Of a stretch of DNA of 64,000 bases, positions 28,851 to 54,648 are shown one piece after another. The DNA comes from a phage. Numbering within the stretch: the first letter of the stretch is position 1; every line of letters begins with the position of its first letter. The notes under the pieces are model-generated. The model was not told the DNA's origin, ran no database searches, and saw only the letters and a program-made list of their open reading frames with translations. The translations under genes were made by a program, and so were the position numbers. The DNA lies in the sequence record PZ445511.1. One strand, written 5' to 3'.

Positions 28851-29552
28851 ATGAAATTCAAGCCCTTTGGTATGCTGGACATTGAATCTCTAGGTACTCC
28901 AGGAAATTGCGGTACTACTCATATTGCAATGCCTTCTTTCGCTTTTGTAGCGATGCACGGAATTGATAAAGATCCTGATCTGGTATTCGTTACTCTAGAC
29001 GTTCAAGATCAGCTTAATGCGGGTGCTAAGGTAACTGCCTCTACTATTGCATTCTGGATGGATCAAGCTAAAAACAGTCCATCTGCGCTCCATATTATGG
29101 AGGCTCTAAATGGTCGTAATCCTAAACTGATTGCCTTCCGTGATGGTAAGCATCACTGCACTAATGACGTAGGCTCTAATTATGCTGCCTTCTCTATGGC
29201 TCAGAACATTATGGAATTGTCTCTAGGAGATAATGCTCTGTATTATGGCAATGGCCCAGAGTTTGATATGACAATCTACTCTGCAAATACGTTCCATGCC
29301 GGAACCCATGAAGAAATAGTTCCGTGGAAATTCTGGAACTTAGGTAACGTTCGATCTTTCCGTAATCAGTGGATGCAAGCTGGTTATAGCTATAAAGATC
29401 TAGAAGCCGAAGGTGCTAGCTGGGCAAAAGCTAAAATGGAAAAGATGGACACCATTCGTTATGGAATCTATCCTGTGAAGCATGATCCAGCATTCGATGC
29501 TTTAGTTGAAAGTTATTGTGTAGCCGTCATGATCGAAAAAATCAAAATTTGA
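28851..29552 (+). CDS. DEDDh-family 3'-5' exonuclease (DnaQ-like)
   Basis: 233 aa; Exo I-like LDIESLG near N-terminus and Exo III-like H..D (VKHDPAFDA) near C-terminus. Confidence 0.55.
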   Translation: MKFKPFGMLDIESLGTPGNCGTTHIAMPSFAFVAMHGIDKDPDLVFVTLDVQDQLNAGAKVTASTIAFWMDQAKNSPSALHIMEALNGRNPKLIAFRDGKHHCTNDVGSNYAAFSMAQNIMELSLGDNALYYGNGPEFDMTIYSANTFHAGTHEEIVPWKFWNLGNVRSFRNQWMQAGYSYKDLEAEGASWAKAKMEKMDTIRYGIYPVKHDPAFDALVESYCVAVMIEKIKI

Positions 29553-29858: not shown

Positions 29859-30497
29859 ATGACTACTCGTATCTCTAAAACTCGTGCTCTGGCAACTATC
29901 AAGTCTCTAGAAGCTAAAATCCGTAAAGCTACTGAACAACAGCTTTTGATTGCTGTTGGTGAAGGTAAGGATAAGAACCAAGTTGTAGTTGGCGCTGCAA
30001 TCGAAGTAGATGCTCTGTCTACTCGTATTAAGACTGATTTCCAGTCTCTGTTGGATATGATGTCCCAGCGTGATCATCTGAAAGCAGCGCTGATCAAGAG
30101 CAATGCTGAAACTGTTGTAGAGATCGGTTCCCGATCTATGACTGTTGCGGAAGCAATCGAAGCTAAGCGTTCTATGGAACTCAAAGCTCAGTTGCTGGCT
30201 AACATGCGTAAGCAGTTCCATGCTGCTACTGTTAAGTTTAACACTCAGAAGGCTCAGTTTGATAACAAGTATGAGCGTTTGCAGGATACCATGGCTACCC
30301 GCGACAAGAAGACTTCTGAGGATGAAGTTAAGATGCAGCTTAACCTGCTGGAACTCAAGAACACTCCGTTCCTGATCGATCCGCTGGAGCTGGAAAAGCT
30401 GATCAAGCAACACGACGAAGAATACCAGGATTTTGCAACCAACGTTGACTTTGTTCTGTCTGAGTCCAACGCCTCTACTTTTATCGAAGTAGAGTAA
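29859..30497 (+). CDS. Hypothetical protein
   Basis: 212-aa ORF with SD aaggaag; high-expression-like codon usage. Confidence 0.6.
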   Translation: MTTRISKTRALATIKSLEAKIRKATEQQLLIAVGEGKDKNQVVVGAAIEVDALSTRIKTDFQSLLDMMSQRDHLKAALIKSNAETVVEIGSRSMTVAEAIEAKRSMELKAQLLANMRKQFHAATVKFNTQKAQFDNKYERLQDTMATRDKKTSEDEVKMQLNLLELKNTPFLIDPLELEKLIKQHDEEYQDFATNVDFVLSESNASTFIEVE

Positions 30498-30887
30498 TGA
30501 TTTAAAAGACTAGTAAATCGGTAGACGAAAGCCCAAGCATCTTACCTCGCAGCAGCGGTTGAAATACGAGGTTAAATAAGACCGCTGACCATACTATAAA
30601 GTATAATCTATTGGAGATTATCTTAATTTATTTTTCGGCAGATGTTGCATCTGTCAAAATAAAACAAGACGTCGTTGGTAGTACCAACACAACTTCAAAG
30701 ATCAACGCTCAAGTATGAAAGCTGAAAAGTTAAAAGCACTCAAACTTCTAACCTTCTAAAGCTAAAAGATGCAAAGTATTCGTTGATGATTCAAACCCTA
30801 GATCAAAGGTACATGGCTCATAAGATATGGCCTGTGGCGCCTCTAGGCTGTTTATCGGTTTACTAGTTTCACAATTTAAAAATGTAT

Positions 30888-30916
30888 TTGCTAATTAGTT
30901 TAGTTTTCTGTATAAT
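30888..30916 (+). promoter_or_regulatory. Sigma70 promoter
   Basis: ttgcta-17bp-tataat. Confidence 0.55.
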
Positions 30917-30946
30917 ATATTTTTAAATTGATGAGACGAGGCTATT

Positions 30947-31210
30947 ATGATTTTTCATATTCTTATTGATGATGTGCGTAACCTTCATGGAATGGACATT
31001 ATAATTCGAACCCCCGAAGCCGCTGTTGAGTTTCTGAATAAAACCGATACCACAGGTCATTTCGTTTATATGGATAACGATCTGGCTGTAGATGATATGG
31101 AAGGTTATCAAATTCTTCGTTTACTCCTAGAATTTGGTCAGAGACCCAAGAAAGTGGTACTAGTAACCTCGAACCCTTCGTCTAAGAGACCATGCGTAAT
31201 GATCTCTTAG
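30947..31210 (+). CDS. Hypothetical protein
   Basis: 87-aa ORF after promoter and gagacgagg RBS. Confidence 0.5.
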   Translation: MIFHILIDDVRNLHGMDIIIRTPEAAVEFLNKTDTTGHFVYMDNDLAVDDMEGYQILRLLLEFGQRPKKVVLVTSNPSSKRPCVMIS

Positions 31211-31268
31211 ACGAAGGGTATCAAGAAAGCCCTAATCGTATTGAGTACGATTGGCCGGAGTAAATAAA

Positions 31269-31718
31269 ATGAAGGCAGCTTTGCTTTTAATAGCTGCCCT
31301 AACCTATAGCTTCAATAGTCATGCTACCTACGACGCTAAACAGATTGATTGCATTGCAAAAAATGTCTATTTTGAGAGCCGAGGTGAGGGCACGAAGGGA
31401 ATGGTTGCAGTTGCACAGGTCACCAAAAACCGTGTTAACTCTGGTACATTCCCGGATTCTTACTGTAAAGTAGTATATCAGTCTAACCAGTTCTCTTGGG
31501 TATCTAAGAGACCAAAAGTTGATAAAACCGATGCGGCTTGGCAAACTGCTAAGAATGTAGCTAGAGTGATATACTACGTTGATTTACCCCATGATCCAAC
31601 ATATGGAGCGTTATACTTCCATAGTGGTAAAGAAAAGCCGTACTGGACGAAAACGTTCAAGAAAACAACTAAAATTCAAGGCCACACGTTCTATAAGCCT
31701 GTGACTAAGAAAATTTAA
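31269..31718 (+). CDS. Secreted SleB-like cell-wall hydrolase
   Basis: Signal peptide MKAALLLIAALTYSFNSHA; conserved SleB/Hydrolase_2-like block NVYFESRGEG...VTKNRV...FP...C...QFSW. Confidence 0.6.
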   Translation: MKAALLLIAALTYSFNSHATYDAKQIDCIAKNVYFESRGEGTKGMVAVAQVTKNRVNSGTFPDSYCKVVYQSNQFSWVSKRPKVDKTDAAWQTAKNVARVIYYVDLPHDPTYGALYFHSGKEKPYWTKTFKKTTKIQGHTFYKPVTKKI

Positions 31719-31726
31719 AAATTCAA

Positions 31727-31755
31727 TTGCTTTAAGCCTTAAAATTCTGTATAAT
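31727..31755 (+). promoter_or_regulatory. Sigma70 promoter
   Basis: ttgctt-17bp-tataat. Confidence 0.55.
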
Positions 31756-31787
31756 AACTGTATAAATTGATGAGAGGAAAGCGAACA

Positions 31788-31958
31788 ATGAAAACCTTAG
31801 TAATTATTGGTGTTAATACTCATGGTATTCGTACTACGAAAACAGTTAAAACTACTAACATTGCTGAAATTACTACAAATCCTAAGAAGTTTGATTTCGC
31901 CAAAGTCTCAGCAGTTATGACAGAACAATCTTTTAACCAAGCACTGGGAATTAAATAA
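31788..31958 (+). CDS. Hypothetical protein
   Basis: 56 aa from ATG after gagagg RBS. Confidence 0.45.
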   Translation: MKTLVIIGVNTHGIRTTKTVKTTNIAEITTNPKKFDFAKVSAVMTEQSFNQALGIK

Positions 31959-32401
31959 TGGAAGAGAATATTCTAGATGTTTTGCGTAGGGCTTTGCAGG
32001 AATCCAAGTTTGATGGTTCTGATAAAGAAGTAGCTAAAAGCTACCAGACCATAATCGGAGATCTTCAGCGTGTTGATAAAGACTTCATTACTTCTGAACA
32101 GTTTATATCTTATCTAAAAGCTCAACTGAAAAGCATTAATCAGACGAAAGCTAAACTTCACAGTCAAGATCTTGATAATTATAGCTTGCAGTCTGCTCAG
32201 TATGAATATATACTGAACAAATGGTTACAGCAGTATTTGCCTCCTCAGCTATCTGATTCTGAGATTCGCAAATACTTCGCAGAATTAGTTAAGCTGAATC
32301 CTGGGATTACAAAGGGTATGCTGATGAAAGCGATTAAGGAAGAGTTTCCTGGTCGTTACGACGGTGGCATTGCTGCTCAGGTTGCTGGCGAATTTAATTA
32401 A
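31958..32401 (+). CDS. GatB/YqeY-domain protein
   Basis: 147 aa; C-terminal YqeY-like block NPGITKGMLMKAIKEEFPGRYDG. Confidence 0.55.
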   Translation: MEENILDVLRRALQESKFDGSDKEVAKSYQTIIGDLQRVDKDFITSEQFISYLKAQLKSINQTKAKLHSQDLDNYSLQSAQYEYILNKWLQQYLPPQLSDSEIRKYFAELVKLNPGITKGMLMKAIKEEFPGRYDGGIAAQVAGEFN

Positions 32402-32444: not shown

Positions 32445-32927
32445 ATGAAAAGGAAAGAATACCCTACTAAAGAAATACTTGAAAAATATTTTGTAGCTGA
32501 TCCTGATAATGGGATACTATATAGGAAAACAAAGAAAGGTTTGAAAGAGTGTTGTGCCAATAATAAGAAATCACATCCAGATGTGGGATTTCAGGGCGAC
32601 ACCTATCAACTGCATGTCTTATTATTTATTATGTACTATGGATATAGGCCTGAAGAAGTAGATCATAAGGATACTAATCCTAGAAATAATAGGAAAAATA
32701 ATCTAAGGGACGCCTCTAGATCGCAAAATAATGCGAATAGAAACCAACAATGCAATAATACTTCTGGGTACAAAGGAGTAAGTTGGGAAGGCTCTTCCTG
32801 GAGATACCAAGTAAGACATGAAGGAAAAAATTACAGTAAAAGAGGGTTTAAAACTGCGGAAGAGGCTTTCGAGGCCTCTAAGATATTAAGAGAATCCTTA
32901 CATAAAGAATTTACTAACTTTGGTTAG
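32445..32927 (+). CDS. HNH homing endonuclease (HNH_3 plus AP2-like domain)
   Basis: 160 aa; VDHKDTNPRNN...NLR and SGYKGVSW motifs; paralog of 26830 and 37805 genes. Confidence 0.7.
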   Translation: MKRKEYPTKEILEKYFVADPDNGILYRKTKKGLKECCANNKKSHPDVGFQGDTYQLHVLLFIMYYGYRPEEVDHKDTNPRNNRKNNLRDASRSQNNANRNQQCNNTSGYKGVSWEGSSWRYQVRHEGKNYSKRGFKTAEEAFEASKILRESLHKEFTNFG

Positions 32928-50672: not shown

Positions 50673-51371
50673 ATGAGAATCATTTCAAAGTTCAATGATG
50701 TATACGATTTGCAGAATAGTTTATTTGATCCAGATCGTGTCTGGGAGCGTAAAACTGAAGAGCTGCTAGTAAAAGTAACTGACGATGTAGAAAAGAATAT
50801 CGTTCATAATCGTCAGGTGTTTCGTGAGGGTTCCTTATCCTTCCGTGGTGACTTCGAATACTCAGTAAATCCACTGTTTATTGCAGGTGAAGTTTACTGG
50901 TTACATGAACTGTCCTGCTGGCATCCAGCATTCAGTTTCAAAACGTTCAACATCGATGCTGTGTTCGATAAAATGGAAGAAATGGGATTACATGCCCGTT
51001 CTTACTTACTAGATAAGAATCGTGGTGATGTTCGTGAAACCATGCGAGATATGTTGGTTGAAGCAAAACCTAAAGCAGAACGTATCTTATCTGAACTGCG
51101 CGTACCAATTGCATATGTGAAAGGTATTAAGAAGAACGATAACGATGATGTTCGTAACTTCGTAATTCAGACAAACATTCGTTTCCATCAGTCAGGTATT
51201 CCGTGGCAGGAAATTGAAAGTAACTTATACCGTTTACACCAAGTTCTCGAACAGTATATTTTCGGTGTACTAGGAACTGGTGAGCCTGATATGATTACCG
51301 TATCAGATAAAGACAGGTTAGCAGCACATGGATTTGATACAAAAACTTCTTTCAGGAATATGGCAAGGTAA
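50673..51371 (+). CDS. Hypothetical protein
   Basis: 232-aa ORF with aaaagga RBS. Confidence 0.6.
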   Translation: MRIISKFNDVYDLQNSLFDPDRVWERKTEELLVKVTDDVEKNIVHNRQVFREGSLSFRGDFEYSVNPLFIAGEVYWLHELSCWHPAFSFKTFNIDAVFDKMEEMGLHARSYLLDKNRGDVRETMRDMLVEAKPKAERILSELRVPIAYVKGIKKNDNDDVRNFVIQTNIRFHQSGIPWQEIESNLYRLHQVLEQYIFGVLGTGEPDMITVSDKDRLAAHGFDTKTSFRNMAR

Positions 51372-51777
51372 GTGGTATATCCTGGGAGCTGGTCTTGCGA
51401 TAGGTATCGGATTCGGTGCTTATCACTTAGTAAATAAGGTTGAAACTCTAGCTGGGGATCTTGCAGTTGCGGCTAAAAAGATCTCCACTCTAGAGACTTC
51501 CCTTAATAAGGTGAAAACTGAAAGTGAACTTCGGGAGACTCGAATGAACCAGTATTTCACAATGAATAATATTTCGCAAGCAGATCTAGACAAAAAGATT
51601 AAGCAGTTAGATAAAGCTCTTAATCGTCAAGATGTTATCGCTGCAAAGCCTGGATTGGTAACATTAATTGCTAAAAAGCAGAATAAAGAGTTCGAGGAAA
51701 GATTAGCGTGTTTAACTGGAAACTTGGAGTACTGCTCGCAGCCGCAATCACAATCACAGGCTGTGCAGAAGAAATAA
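51328..51777 (+). CDS. Putative i-spanin-like type II membrane protein
   Basis: 149 aa; N-terminal TM helix then coiled-coil periplasmic region; next gene starts inside its 3' end. Confidence 0.4.
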   Translation: MDLIQKLLSGIWQGKWYILGAGLAIGIGFGAYHLVNKVETLAGDLAVAAKKISTLETSLNKVKTESELRETRMNQYFTMNNISQADLDKKIKQLDKALNRQDVIAAKPGLVTLIAKKQNKEFEERLACLTGNLEYCSQPQSQSQAVQKK

Positions 51778-52061
51778 AACCAGAGCCATCCCATGAGTTA
51801 AAGCAAGCTCATATCGATTGGCCTAAAGGACTTCAGCCTTGTAGTTTTGATTTCAAATTCGAAAAGAAATTAGCTACAAATGGTGAAGATGGCGTAGTAG
51901 TTGTTGTACCTTACAAAGATTGGAATGCAAAAGCAAAATGCGAGGAAGCAGTTTACTCTTACATTTCACGACTGACCGGTATGGTTTGCTTCTATCGTCA
52001 GGATTTACAAGAAAAACGTTGCTTAGTTTATTATCCACCCATTACAAATAGGAAAGATTAA
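51708..52061 (+). CDS. Putative outer-membrane lipoprotein (o-spanin-like)
   Basis: GTG start after gagga; lipoprotein signal with lipobox ITGC; embedded in another frame in upstream gene. Confidence 0.4.
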   Translation: MFNWKLGVLLAAAITITGCAEEIKPEPSHELKQAHIDWPKGLQPCSFDFKFEKKLATNGEDGVVVVVPYKDWNAKAKCEEAVYSYISRLTGMVCFYRQDLQEKRCLVYYPPITNRKD

Positions 52062-53581: not shown

Positions 53582-54238
53582 GTGGAAAAGTTTATACAAC
53601 TATTAACGATACTGCTACAAGAAGCGAAAGATCCAGCTTCGCTACTAAAACGTCTGCTAACTATCTTAGTTGCTGTCATTATTTTCTTGTTTATAAGTAA
53701 CACTAGCGAGGTGATGTCATTTTTAAAGACTTTCTCCACGTCTTCGGTTTTACAGGATGTTCAAACCCAAAGGATAGATAACTTTCCTAATGTAGCACGA
53801 GAAAAGAGTATGGTTCTTTTCTCCCAGACTGGTGCGGATGCCGTTTTTGTAGTAAAGTATAAACCAGATGCTATAAATGATTATTCAAACATTATTGCAT
53901 GGGAAAGCAATGCGCAATTGGATAGGGCTGACTTGGCCGATAAAGCAGTAAACAAGACGTCTGAACTTTATAGACGTCACCTGGAAGGCTTTAACTATGC
54001 TGCGGATTTAAGTGTAAAAGTAAATAAATATACGGGGTCAAATATACCAGCGTTTAAGAACATTACTTTTAATTACGTCTACACTTGTCCATATTTCAAC
54101 CTAAATAATATCTATGCTGGATACATAGGTATTGCATGGAAGGATAAACCCGTAGATACAGCTGATTCGGAACAATTTAATGAGTACTTAGCAAAGCTCT
54201 GTTCCCCACAACGGAGATCATTAGGTAGATCTATATGA
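53582..54238 (+). CDS. Holin
   Basis: 218 aa; N-terminal TM segment, GTG start with aggagg SD, immediately upstream of and overlapping endolysin gene. Confidence 0.6.
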   Translation: MEKFIQLLTILLQEAKDPASLLKRLLTILVAVIIFLFISNTSEVMSFLKTFSTSSVLQDVQTQRIDNFPNVAREKSMVLFSQTGADAVFVVKYKPDAINDYSNIIAWESNAQLDRADLADKAVNKTSELYRRHLEGFNYAADLSVKVNKYTGSNIPAFKNITFNYVYTCPYFNLNNIYAGYIGIAWKDKPVDTADSEQFNEYLAKLCSPQRRSLGRSI

Positions 54239-54648
54239 GTTTTAAATTTGGTAAAAATAGCGAAAAACAATTAGCAACTGTTAAGCCCGAGCTACAGAAG
54301 GTAGCTCGTAGGGCTTTAGAATTATCTCCATATGATTTCACAATCGTACAGGGTATTCGTACAGTAGCACAAAGTGCCCAAAACATTGCTAATGGTACTT
54401 CATTTTTGAAAGACCCTAGCAAAAGTAAGCATGTAACTGGAGACGCTATCGATTTTGCACCATATATTAATGGTAAGATTGATTGGAAAGATCTGGAAGC
54501 ATTTTGGGCTGTTAAGAAGGCTTTTGAACAAGCTGGTAAGGAACTTGGTGTCAAACTTCGTTTTGGTGCCGACTGGAATAGTTCTGGTGATTATCATGAT
54601 GAGATCGATCGTGGTACTTACGACGGTGGTCACGTAGAATTAGTCTGA
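54235..54648 (+). CDS. Endolysin, zinc-dependent L-alanyl-D-glutamate peptidase (M15-like)
   Basis: 137 aa; H...D...H metal-ligand pattern (SKHVTGDAIDF ... DGGHVE). Confidence 0.75.
   Translation: MSFKFGKNSEKQLATVKPELQKVARRALELSPYDFTIVQGIRTVAQSAQNIANGTSFLKDPSKSKHVTGDAIDFAPYINGKIDWKDLEAFWAVKKAFEQAGKELGVKLRFGADWNSSGDYHDEIDRGTYDGGHVELV

What the first reader, a model, noticed from the sequence alone, without database searches (positions are those of the whole stretch)
31269..31718. Secreted SleB-like cell-wall hydrolase outside the lysis cassette
A signal-peptide-bearing protein with a SleB/Hydrolase_2-like block is expressed from its own early promoter, about 22 kb from the holin/endolysin genes. 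It may act in the periplasm for a purpose other than end-of-cycle lysis.
Basis: partly seen in the sequence, partly recalled or inferred. Interest (0 to 1): 0.5.

Follow-up and report, generated by a model that had tools for sequence, protein, structure and literature searches.

The report
Exported SleB-type wall hydrolase of T5-like phage
This is the already-annotated "cell wall hydrolase" gene of T5-like Salmonella phages (the counterpart of T5 gene T5.083): a small enzyme built to be exported to the periplasm, with the fold of a spore-cortex glycan-cutting enzyme, real and conserved but of unproven role and apparently dispensable in the laboratory.

Summary
The ORF at 31269-31718 (+) is real. 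It is 100% identical to the annotated "cell wall hydrolase" of Salmonella phage vaffelhjerte (Epseptimavirus) and 85% identical to T5 gene T5.083.

It matches Pfam Hydrolase_2 end to end (E 3.7e-26). Its AlphaFold model matches only the SleB catalytic domains 4F55/4FET. Glu36 aligns with the SleB catalytic glutamate.

It has a 19-residue Sec-type signal peptide with a conserved small-x-Ala cleavage site, and a covarying Cys28/Cys66 pair, as expected of a periplasmic protein. The holin/M15-endolysin pair lies 21.9 kb away.

One detail is wrong: the gene has no promoter of its own. It is the second gene of a two-gene early operon behind a cREC_REC-domain gene, as annotated in T5.

"Early" does not set it apart, because the holin and endolysin lie in the same early-strand block.

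The most likely role is a Sec-exported, holin-independent accessory glycan-cleaving enzyme that backs up the L-Ala-D-Glu peptidase endolysin. A separate non-lysis periplasmic role is not excluded.

A published T5 knock-down screen scores T5.083 and lys as "Not Fit" and the holin as "Fit". Several papers have already noted the "second endolysin far from holin". Known gene, unresolved function, modest interest.

The parts
30888..30916 (+). Sigma-70-type early promoter (TTGCTA-17-TATAAT) driving the two-gene operon
   Evidence: Best consensus match in 30400-32100, 10 of 12. Its position corresponds to the promoter annotated upstream of T5.084 in the T5 record.
30947..31210 (+). First cistron: cREC_REC-domain gene (T5.084 orthologue), frameshifted in this window (87 aa; 105 aa ending at 31263 in relatives)
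   Evidence: The intact vaffelhjerte protein matches PF20274 at E 8.5e-15. The window carries a local substitution cluster plus a 1-nt deletion.
31173..31219 (.). 21-nt inverted repeat with a 5-nt loop inside the first cistron; the sequence change that perfects it causes the frameshift
   Evidence: the repeat finder reports 95% complementarity. RNA fold is -34.2 kcal/mol against -16.3 for the vaffelhjerte version. None of 189 related phage records carries this variant.
31257..31260 (+). Shine-Dalgarno GGAG, 8 nt upstream of the ATG
   Evidence: Read directly from the sequence.
31269..31718 (+). SleB-like (Hydrolase_2) exported peptidoglycan hydrolase, 149 aa, T5.083 orthologue
   Evidence: Pfam PF07486 E 3.7e-26. 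PHROG 938. 100% identical to QIN99712.1. 85% identical to T5.083 with dN/dS 0.10.
31269..31325 (+). Signal peptide, residues 1-19 (MKAALLLIAALTYSFNSHA), predicted signal peptidase I cleavage after Ala19
   Evidence: Hydrophobicity profile. Small residue at -3 and Ala at -1 conserved in the T5-like homologues. 136 of 151 sequences (the query plus 150 family representatives) have an N-terminal hydrophobic segment.
31350..31352 (+). Cys28 codon, half of the conserved Cys pair (putative periplasmic disulfide)
   Evidence: Invariant in alignment A1. Present together with Cys66 in 148 of 151 sequences.
31374..31376 (+). Glu36 codon, predicted catalytic glutamate in the YFESRGE motif
   Evidence: Invariant and present in 150 of 151 sequences. 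It aligns with the Glu of GESRGE in SleB 4F55/4FET.
31464..31466 (+). Cys66 codon, the other half of the conserved Cys pair
31727..31755 (+). Next early promoter (TTGCTT-17-TATAAT) for the downstream DUF7616/YqeY genes; it marks the end of the two-gene unit
   Evidence: Read from the sequence. It corresponds to promoter P-D/E 33 annotated in T5 between T5.083 and T5.082. It fell below the scan threshold because the -35 hexamer matches only 3 of 6.
53582..54238 (+). Holin (T4 t-type class III), shown for context
   Evidence: PF11031 E 7.9e-111.
54235..54648 (+). Canonical endolysin (M15 L-alanyl-D-glutamate peptidase type), shown for context
   Evidence: Peptidase_M15_4 and VanY matches. Annotated as endolysin next to the holin in relatives.

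Best explanation
The gene encodes a small (mature form about 14.9 kDa, pI 9.7) single-domain enzyme of the SleB/CwlJ (Hydrolase_2) fold. It is transcribed with the preceding cREC_REC gene from a host-sigma-70 early promoter. I infer that it is exported by Sec, cleaved after Ala19 and folded in the periplasm with a Cys28-Cys66 disulfide. By analogy with SleB, whose equivalent glutamate is essential for lytic transglycosylase activity, Glu36 would cleave the glycan strands of host peptidoglycan. It reaches the wall without the holin. I propose that it accumulates there in a tolerated or restrained state during infection and helps destroy the sacculus once the holin triggers, complementing the cytoplasmic L-Ala-D-Glu peptidase endolysin. 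One enzyme would cut glycan strands and the other peptide stems. In this reading it is an accessory, partly redundant 'second endolysin' of the secreted type, dispensable under laboratory conditions. Shown here: the ORF, the domain, the fold, the conserved catalytic residue, the export-signal features, operon position, purifying selection, and near-universal presence in T5-like phages. Inferred: signal-peptide cleavage, the disulfide, bond specificity, timing of activity and the role in lysis. The confidence of 0.5 applies to the accessory-lysis role; the molecular identity (an exported SleB-fold peptidoglycan-cleaving enzyme) I put at about 0.9.
For: Domain and fold: PF07486 E 3.7e-26 over the full profile. 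AlphaFold model pLDDT 86.6. The only Foldseek PDB matches at E <= 0.001 are SleB 4F55 and 4FET, probability 1.0, TM 0.70-0.72. Catalytic residue: Glu36 is invariant and aligns with chain position 26 of 4F55 and 120 of 4FET, the Glu of GESRGE. That glutamate is reported as essential for SleB lytic transglycosylase activity (PMC12331253). Export: signal-peptide features. An N-terminal hydrophobic segment is present in 136 of 151 sequences and the Cys28/Cys66 pair in 148 of 151. Homologues in Vequintavirus, phi92 and Pakpunavirus also carry N-terminal hydrophobic leaders. Selection and conservation: dN/dS 0.10 against T5.083. 519 phage records carry a copy at >=60% identity, against 527 for the M15 endolysin. 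Lysis link: the SP-bearing homologue CB7_83 was toxic on expression in E. coli and CR3_087 has been implicated in lysis (PMC7344957). In T5, knock-down of lys alone and of T5.083 alone is 'Not Fit' while the holin is 'Fit' (PMC11879866 supplement). This is the pattern expected if two wall enzymes back each other up and both depend on holin triggering. The same pairing of an M15 peptidase with a SleB-like enzyme recurs in Vequintavirinae.
Against: No muralytic assay of any T5-like member was found. The CRISPRi-ART T5 screen has many false negatives: D10, D13 and N4 are also 'Not Fit' and its authors advise caution, so 'Not Fit' for lys may be technical. The gene is not next to any holin, spanin or endolysin gene in any lineage examined, apart from a candidate holin in CB7. 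It recurs instead in replication and nucleotide-metabolism modules, which hints at a role earlier in infection. An active wall-cleaving enzyme exported from early times would need to be tolerated or restrained, and no restraining mechanism was identified. Bacillus SleB is known to require muramic-delta-lactam (my own knowledge, not tested here), which is absent from Salmonella peptidoglycan, so the substrate specificity must differ.
Confidence: 0.5

Rival explanations
1. A dedicated non-lysis periplasmic function. An early-exported lytic transglycosylase would remodel or turn over host peptidoglycan during infection. Possible purposes include clearing uncross-linked strands, altering the sacculus for host takeover, superinfection control or evasion of envelope-linked defences. 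It would have no part in end-of-cycle lysis.
For: SP-bearing Hydrolase_2 genes recur in early, replication or nucleotide-metabolism modules, away from lysis genes, in several unrelated virulent phage lineages: T5-like phages; Vequintavirus, next to rIIA/rIIB; phi92; Pakpunavirus, next to ligase and dCMP deaminase; and metagenomic phage contigs. For T5-like phages, Vequintavirinae and a PVP-SE1-like phage a separate endolysin is documented. Export does not depend on the holin. E. coli is reported to tolerate raised lytic transglycosylase activity (abstract of PMC10139938), so continuous activity need not be lethal.
Against: No specific process or partner can be named. No gene neighbour is conserved across lineages. 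T5.083 knock-down has no fitness effect in the laboratory. Toxicity of the CB7 homologue on expression fits a lytic enzyme. Early-block location does not distinguish it, because the T5-type holin and endolysin lie in the same block.
Confidence: 0.25
2. Post-lysis or between-cell role. The basic, stable, disulfide-bonded enzyme would be released at lysis and then degrade glycan strands in debris left by the peptidase endolysin, freeing trapped progeny, or it would act on neighbouring cells.
For: The mature protein is basic (pI 9.7) with a cationic C-terminus. The putative disulfide would suit an extracellular life. The glycan-versus-peptide bond specificities of the two enzymes would be complementary (inferred).
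Against: The outer membrane blocks access to the peptidoglycan of intact neighbouring cells. No data support this role. Export to the producer cell's periplasm is not needed for it.
Confidence: 0.07
3. Virion-associated lysin used at entry.
For: Hydrolase_2 domains occur in some phage polyvalent proteins, which are proposed to be virion-packaged and to help breach peptidoglycan at entry (PMC5512222).
Against: A cleavable Sec signal sends the protein to the periplasm, away from cytoplasmic virion assembly. The gene sits in the early block, not among the structural genes. The T5 tape-measure protein pb2 already carries the muralytic activity used at entry (reference cited in PMC6116005). The SleB-domain protein gp368 of PA5oct was not detected in virions by mass spectrometry.
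Confidence: 0.03
4. A catalytically dead or vestigial domain, for example a binding protein only or a decaying gene.
For: Dispensable in the T5 screen. It evolves faster than the M15 endolysin: most relatives are 80-95% identical, against >=95% for the endolysin.
Against: The catalytic Glu and the surrounding motif are invariant. dN/dS is 0.10. The gene is present in essentially all T5-like records.
Confidence: 0.05

Closest known systems
Phage T5 gene T5.083 (YP_006911.1; RefSeq label 'endolysin', PHROG 938)
   Same: Orthologue: 149 aa, 85% identical, the same signal peptide, Cys pair and catalytic motif. Gene order is also the same: T5.085, promoter, T5.084 (cREC_REC), T5.083, promoter P-D/E 33, T5.082, T5.081.
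   Different: Nothing substantive. In this window the upstream cistron is frameshifted. T5.083 itself is uncharacterised and scored 'Not Fit' in CRISPRi-ART.
Bacillus SleB catalytic domain (PDB 4F55, 4FET) and CwlJ, the germination-specific cortex-lytic enzymes
   Same: Same Hydrolase_2 fold (TM 0.70-0.72, 30-31% identity). The same GESRGE-type motif with the essential glutamate. Like CwlJ, it is a single domain.
   Different: It lacks the N-terminal PG_binding_1 domain of SleB. It scores 56.6 bits against the 236.5-bit cut-off of the SleB equivalog model TIGR02869. No YpeB partner gene was noticed among the annotated or scanned neighbours (no dedicated search was made). The muramic-delta-lactam substrate is absent from the host (my own knowledge). 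It also has a Sec signal and a Cys28/Cys66 pair that SleB lacks.
SleB-like hydrolases of Vequintavirinae and relatives (CB7_83, CR3_087, rV5-type such as naam_76), phi92 gp170, PVP-SE1 gp243 and Pakpunavirus PaoP5_032
   Same: Small Hydrolase_2 proteins with N-terminal hydrophobic leaders, encoded away from the lysis genes. A separate endolysin is documented for Vequintavirinae and a PVP-SE1-like phage. CB7_83 has a signal peptide and is reported as toxic in E. coli.
   Different: Only 34-37% identical. The cysteines sit at other positions. The gene neighbours differ: rIIA/rIIB, glycosyltransferases, ligase.
Sec-secreted endolysins (Lys44 of Oenococcus phage fOg44) and SAR endolysins (P1 Lyz, phage 21 R)
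   Same: Export is holin-independent. In those systems the enzyme is placed beside the wall ahead of time and is unleashed when the membrane is de-energised (established knowledge, not tested here).
   Different: Those enzymes are the phage's main endolysin, are encoded in the lysis cassette and have lysozyme or muramidase folds. SAR domains are about 20-residue, Gly/Ala-rich, uncleaved anchors. Here the hydrophobic core is 13 residues and is followed by an S-H-A cleavage motif.
EndoT5 (T5 lys, M15 L-alanyl-D-glutamate peptidase), the canonical endolysin of this phage group
   Same: Both target peptidoglycan. Both lie in the early-strand block and both are present in essentially all T5-like genomes.
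   Different: Unrelated fold and bond specificity. EndoT5 has no signal peptide, is adjacent to the holin and depends on it.

Membership tests
Pfam Hydrolase_2 (PF07486; SleB/CwlJ cell wall hydrolase domain) | Profile match above the gathering threshold over the whole domain | tested here: met
   92.1 bits against a cut-off of 27, E 3.7e-26, profile positions 1-100 of 100.
Pfam Hydrolase_2 (PF07486; SleB/CwlJ cell wall hydrolase domain) | SleB catalytic-domain fold | tested here: met
   Model pLDDT 86.6. Foldseek top hits are 4F55 and 4FET, probability 1.0, TM 0.70-0.72, and no other hit reaches E <= 0.001.
Pfam Hydrolase_2 (PF07486; SleB/CwlJ cell wall hydrolase domain) | Conserved catalytic glutamate | tested here: met
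   Glu36 aligns with the Glu of GESRGE in both SleB structures. It is invariant in 27 homologues and present in 150 of 151 sequences. The residue numbers Glu151 and Glu157 are from my own knowledge plus chain-offset arithmetic.
Pfam Hydrolase_2 (PF07486; SleB/CwlJ cell wall hydrolase domain) | Peptidoglycan-cleaving (lytic transglycosylase) activity | not testable with these tools
   Needs a zymogram or muropeptide analysis of the purified protein.
SleB proper (NCBIfam TIGR02869 spore_SleB equivalog) | Equivalog score and the two-domain architecture (N-terminal PG-binding domain plus catalytic domain) | tested here: not met
   56.6 bits against a cut-off of 236.5, and only profile positions 78-201 are matched. 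Pfam finds no PG_binding domain.
Canonical holin-dependent endolysin | Cytoplasmic accumulation (no export signal) and a gene in the lysis cassette beside the holin | tested here: not met
   A signal peptide is present. The gene lies 21.9 kb from the holin/endolysin pair.
SAR (signal-anchor-release) endolysin | Uncleaved, weakly hydrophobic N-terminal transmembrane domain of about 20 residues, rich in Gly/Ala/Ser | tested here: not met
   The hydrophobic core is only about 13 residues, is Leu/Ile-rich, and is followed by a conserved small-x-Ala site. This rests on sequence alone; cleavage was not shown experimentally.
Sec-secreted endolysin (Lys44 type) | Cleavable Sec signal peptide on a muralytic enzyme | tested here: met
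   Signal-peptide features hold across the family. No dedicated predictor was available.
Sec-secreted endolysin (Lys44 type) | Required for, or contributing to, host lysis; activity unleashed by membrane de-energisation | not testable with these tools
   Only indirect data exist: T5.083 'Not Fit', lys 'Not Fit', holin 'Fit'.
Virion-associated peptidoglycan hydrolase | Presence in the virion; gene in the structural module | tested here: not met
   The gene lies in the early block, between nucleotide-metabolism genes and the tRNA region. Virion proteomics could not be tested here; the distant PA5oct homologue was absent from virion mass spectrometry.

The most novel reading that the evidence does not exclude
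The signal-peptide-bearing, Cys-pair-containing Hydrolase_2 clade is not a spare endolysin. It recurs in the early and replication modules of at least five unrelated lineages of large virulent phages of Gram-negative bacteria. A separate canonical endolysin is documented for three of those lineages and assumed for the others. In this reading the clade is a dedicated early periplasmic peptidoglycan-remodelling factor with its own function during infection, such as host-envelope takeover, superinfection control or evasion of envelope-linked defence. That would define a conserved but unrecognised step of the lytic cycle.
Probability: 0.2. Interest if true: 0.6.

Novelty: already known. Interest (0 to 1): 0.25.

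Why it matters
The gene is a core gene of T5-like phages and has been annotated for two decades, yet nobody appears to have tested what it does. Databases label it "endolysin" by homology, although these phages already carry a validated, holin-linked endolysin. If it is a redundant secreted wall enzyme, that would explain why knocking down the T5 endolysin alone has little effect, and it bears on the design of lysis-defective or engineered T5-like therapeutic phages. If it has a separate early periplasmic role, the same would probably hold for the similar genes in rV5-, phi92-, PVP-SE1- and PAK_P1-like phages. In practical terms it is a small, basic, apparently disulfide-stabilised glycan-cleaving enzyme adapted to the Gram-negative periplasm. 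It is therefore a candidate enzybiotic that differs from the usual lysozyme-type lysins.

Tried and rejected
- **Own promoter.** The only candidate next to the gene (31241-31270, 9 of 12) ends on the start codon, and T5 annotates no promoter there.
- **Conserved partner gene across phage families** (an inhibitor, immunity protein or holin next to the SleB-like gene). Pfam scans of the flanking genes in Vequintavirus, phi92, PaoP5 and two metagenomic phages found nothing shared. The cREC_REC linkage is specific to T5-like phages.
- **SleB orthology.** Rejected on the TIGR02869 score.
- **SAR endolysin.** Rejected on the length and composition of the hydrophobic core and on the cleavage motif.
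[quoted passage not shown] The SleB structure papers (PMC3415495, PMC3621120) were not held, so the catalytic-residue numbering rests on my own knowledge plus chain-offset arithmetic.
- **A third 'putative endolysin'.** It is annotated in vaffelhjerte (gene 115, tRNA region) but has no BLAST match in this window.
- **Disulfide geometry.** It could not be measured because model coordinates are not exposed to the script environment. The disulfide rests on covariation only.
Full report
**What the window is.** The window comes from a T5-like Salmonella phage (Demerecviridae, Markadamsvirinae, Epseptimavirus). The 3 kb around the finding is 99.8% identical to Salmonella phages vaffelhjerte, vB_SenS-3, gmork and PMBT36. 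Over its full length the window is a mosaic relative of vaffelhjerte with several insertions and deletions. The + strand from about 19 kb onward is the T5-type early block. It holds nucleotide-metabolism genes, then the finding, then a long tRNA region, and then the spanin, holin and endolysin genes.

**The observation.**
- An ATG-initiated ORF occupies exactly 31269-31718 (+), 149 aa, with GGAG 8 nt upstream.
- It coincides with the annotated CDS vaffelhjerte_92 "cell wall hydrolase" at 100% amino-acid identity.
- It matches Pfam Hydrolase_2 (PF07486) over the whole profile: E 3.7e-26, 92.1 bits against a cut-off of 27. It also falls in PHROG 938, labelled "endolysin".
- phmmer against PDB sequences finds only the SleB catalytic domains 4F55 and 4FET, at E about 1e-9.
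- An AlphaFold2 model built on 27 homologues has mean pLDDT 86.6.
- Foldseek against the PDB returns only those two structures at E <= 0.001: probability 1.0, TM 0.70-0.72 normalised to the target.

**Catalytic residue.** Glu36, in the motif YFESRGE, aligns with the first Glu of GESRGE in both SleB structures (chain position 26 of 4F55 and 120 of 4FET). By chain-offset arithmetic these are Glu157 of B. cereus SleB and Glu151 of B. anthracis SleB. The residue numbers come from my own knowledge, because the primary papers were not held. A 2025 paper confirms that the catalytic glutamate of SleB is essential for its lytic transglycosylase activity (PMC12331253). Conservation is as follows:
- Glu36 is invariant in 27 homologues down to 35% identity.
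- In the alignment of the query with the 150 best representatives from an exhaustive search (151 sequences), Glu36 is present in 150.
- In the same alignment Asn54 and Arg55 are present in all 151 and His139 in 150.

**Export signal.**
- The N-terminus MKAALLLIAALTYSFNSHA|TYD has a lysine at position 2, a 13-residue Leu/Ile/Ala-rich core and S-H-A at positions -3 to -1.
- Every T5-like homologue keeps Ala at -1 and a small residue at -3 (SHA, SQA, AYA, SYA, TFA).
- The core is too short and too hydrophobic for a SAR anchor.
- Of the 151 aligned sequences, 136 carry an N-terminal hydrophobic 11-mer; most of the rest are N-terminally truncated sequences or have very short N-termini.
- Cys28 and Cys66 are both present in 148 of the 151 and both absent in one. 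Bacillus SleB has neither.
- A covarying cysteine pair in a protein with a signal peptide is what a DsbA-oxidised periplasmic protein would show. I could not measure the Cys-Cys distance because model coordinates are not exposed.
- The predicted mature protein is 130 aa, 14.9 kDa, pI 9.7.

- The only strong sigma-70 match nearby (TTGCTA-17-TATAAT, 30888-30916) precedes the upstream gene, which starts at 30947.
- The weak 9/12 match at 31241-31270 ends on the start codon and cannot serve this gene.
- The T5 RefSeq record shows the orthologous arrangement: promoter, T5.084, T5.083, promoter P-D/E 33, T5.082, T5.081. No promoter is annotated between T5.084 and T5.083.
- In intact relatives the stop codon of the upstream gene lies between the Shine-Dalgarno sequence and the ATG of the hydrolase gene, 5 nt apart. 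That is typical of coupled cistrons.
- The upstream gene encodes a cREC_REC "cyclic-phosphate processing receiver" domain (PF20274, E 8.5e-15).
- "Early" expression does not distinguish this gene from the lysis genes. The class III holin (53582-54238, PF11031, E 7.9e-111), the M15 peptidase endolysin (54235-54648) and the spanins (51328-52061) lie on the same strand in the same block, 21.9 kb downstream.

**Conservation.**
- tblastn finds the protein in 1357 phage records, 519 of them at >=60% identity.
- The M15 endolysin is found at >=60% identity in 527 records. The SleB-like gene is therefore essentially a core gene of T5-like phages.
- It diverges faster than the endolysin: mostly 80-95% identical, against >=95% for the endolysin.
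- Against T5.083 it is 85% identical with dN/dS 0.10, which indicates purifying selection.
- The wider family is very large: 14,341 cluster representatives at E <= 1e-3 and 5,264 at E <= 1e-10. It includes chromosomal proteobacterial members, for example one from an Azospirillaceae MAG.

**A recurring pattern in other phages.**
- Homologues at 34-37% identity, also with N-terminal hydrophobic leaders, occur in several other lineages: Vequintavirus (naam_76, immediately upstream of rIIA/rIIB), phi92 (gp170) and Pakpunavirus (PaoP5_032, beside DNA ligase and dCMP deaminase).
- Closer metagenomic relatives (P0035 at 43% and P0031 at 50% identity to the query) lie beside polymerase, primase-helicase, RNase H and Thy1-type genes on phage-like contigs.
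- Published genome papers note that some of these phages also carry a separate endolysin. A PVP-SE1-like phage (BME3) has a lysozyme plus a SleB homologue in the replication module. Certrevirus and Septuagintavirus have an M15 peptidase plus a SleB-like protein.
- I found no neighbouring gene conserved across lineages.

**What is already published on this gene.**
- The T5-like gene was noted as "cell wall hydrolase SleB" in the early region of AKFV33 in 2012 (PMC3326045).
- In 2024 it was described as an "endolysin far from holin" carrying a SleB domain in T5-like Salmonella phages. The authors wrote explicitly that further work is needed to learn which endolysin is used (PMC11180984).
- For Pectobacterium phage CB7 the homologue was reported to have a signal peptide and to be toxic when expressed in E. 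coli (data not shown). The same paper says CR3_087 has been implicated in lysis (PMC7344957).
- The SleB-domain protein gp368 of PA5oct was not detected in virions.
- The CRISPRi-ART transcriptome-wide knock-down of T5 lists T5.083 as "Not Fit" (mean fitness -3.97, P 0.73), lys (T5.040) as "Not Fit" and the holin (T5.041) as "Fit" (PMC11879866 supplement).
- That screen also calls D10, D13 and N4 "Not Fit", and its authors advise caution for T5. A negative result there is therefore weak evidence.
- I found no enzymology for any T5-like member.

**Most likely mechanism.** The molecular identity is well supported, at roughly 0.9: an exported, periplasmic, single-domain SleB-fold enzyme with an intact catalytic glutamate. 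It most likely cleaves glycan strands as a lytic transglycosylase or muramidase.

The biological role is inferred. I favour, at about 0.5, an accessory endolysin of the secreted type. It would be delivered by Sec independently of the holin and tolerated or restrained in the energised cell. It would then contribute to sacculus destruction once the holin triggers, complementing the L-Ala-D-Glu peptidase by attacking a different bond.

This reading accounts for three things:
- the toxicity of a homologue on expression;
- the recurring pairing with M15 peptidases;
- the screen pattern in which neither wall enzyme alone matters but the holin does.

It is favoured by the persistent placement of such genes in early and replication modules in many lineages, but no specific process can be named. 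A post-lysis debris-clearing role, a virion role and a dead domain are all less likely, for the reasons given in the rival explanations.

**Comparison with known families.**
- It is a member of Pfam Hydrolase_2.
- It is not a SleB orthologue: it scores 56.6 bits on TIGR02869 against a cut-off of 236.5 and has no PG-binding domain.
- It is not a canonical holin-dependent endolysin, because it has a signal peptide and lies outside the cassette.
- It is not a SAR endolysin by sequence criteria.
- It works most like Sec-secreted endolysins such as Lys44. That is a functional analogy, not a demonstrated membership.

**Verdict.** The feature is real and correctly read in most respects, but it is an already annotated, repeatedly noticed gene. 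What remains open is its biological role, which a handful of straightforward experiments would settle. Interest is modest at 0.25. The most novel reading still allowed is a dedicated early periplasmic peptidoglycan-remodelling step shared by many large virulent phages, with probability about 0.2.

**Seen in passing.** In this window the upstream cREC_REC gene is frameshifted by a clustered change (CCCAGTAGCTAAAGAGA to CCCTTCGTCTAAGAGA). The change turns an imperfect palindrome into a near-perfect 21-nt hairpin: -34.2 against -16.3 kcal/mol, z-score -8.5. None of 189 related phage records shares it. This is the signature of a quasipalindrome template-switch mutation, or else an assembly artefact. 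It removes the translational coupling to the hydrolase gene.

Noticed in passing
window 31173-31219 (within the upstream gene 30947-31210/31263): The cREC_REC gene upstream of the hydrolase is frameshifted (87 aa instead of 105). The cause is a clustered substitution plus a 1-nt deletion that converts an imperfect palindrome into a near-perfect 21-nt inverted repeat (RNA fold -34.2 against -16.3 kcal/mol). None of 189 related phage records has this variant; the best match is 95.9% identical. It looks like a quasipalindrome template-switch mutation or an assembly artefact.
   Followed up: partly
window 30947-31263; T5 gene T5.084: The co-transcribed upstream gene encodes a cREC_REC 'cyclic-phosphate processing receiver' domain (PF20274, E 8.5e-15). 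The CRISPRi-ART supplementary text lists T5.084 among five 'Fit' genes of unknown function, yet the supplementary table marks it 'Not Fit'. The source is inconsistent and the gene's function is unknown.
   Followed up: partly
T5 genes lys (T5.040), T5.083 and holin (T5.041); window 31269-31718 and 53582-54648: In the published T5 knock-down screen the canonical endolysin lys is 'Not Fit' while the holin is 'Fit'. This could reflect redundancy with the SleB-like enzyme or simply the limited sensitivity of the screen. A double knock-down would decide between the two.
   Followed up: no
window 31788-31958 and 31958-32401: The genes downstream, behind their own promoter, encode a 56-aa DUF7616 protein (E 6.7e-35) and a protein with a sub-threshold YqeY match (25.2 bits against a cut-off of 27). 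RefSeq labels the latter 'tRNA amidotransferase'. Neither shows an evident link to the hydrolase.
   Followed up: no
window 32445-32927: An HNH_3 homing-endonuclease gene lies just before the tRNA block (PF13392, E 1.2e-11). The window differs from vaffelhjerte by several insertions and deletions, some at sites where vaffelhjerte has annotated homing or HNH endonuclease genes (for example around window 22.8 kb and 50.7-51.4 kb).
   Followed up: no
L004 (Escherichia phage naam) 2402-4881: In Vequintavirus the SP-bearing SleB-like gene overlaps the start of rIIA by 4 nt and is followed by rIIB. These are membrane-associated early genes linked to lysis control. This may be a clue to the role of the family.
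   Followed up: no
window 28851-29552 and 29859-30497: Several database labels nearby look unreliable. The 'putative metallopeptidase' matches a 3'-5' exoribonuclease Rv2179c-like domain (E 1.3e-7). The 212-aa 'tail fiber protein' in the early block has no Pfam match.
   Followed up: no
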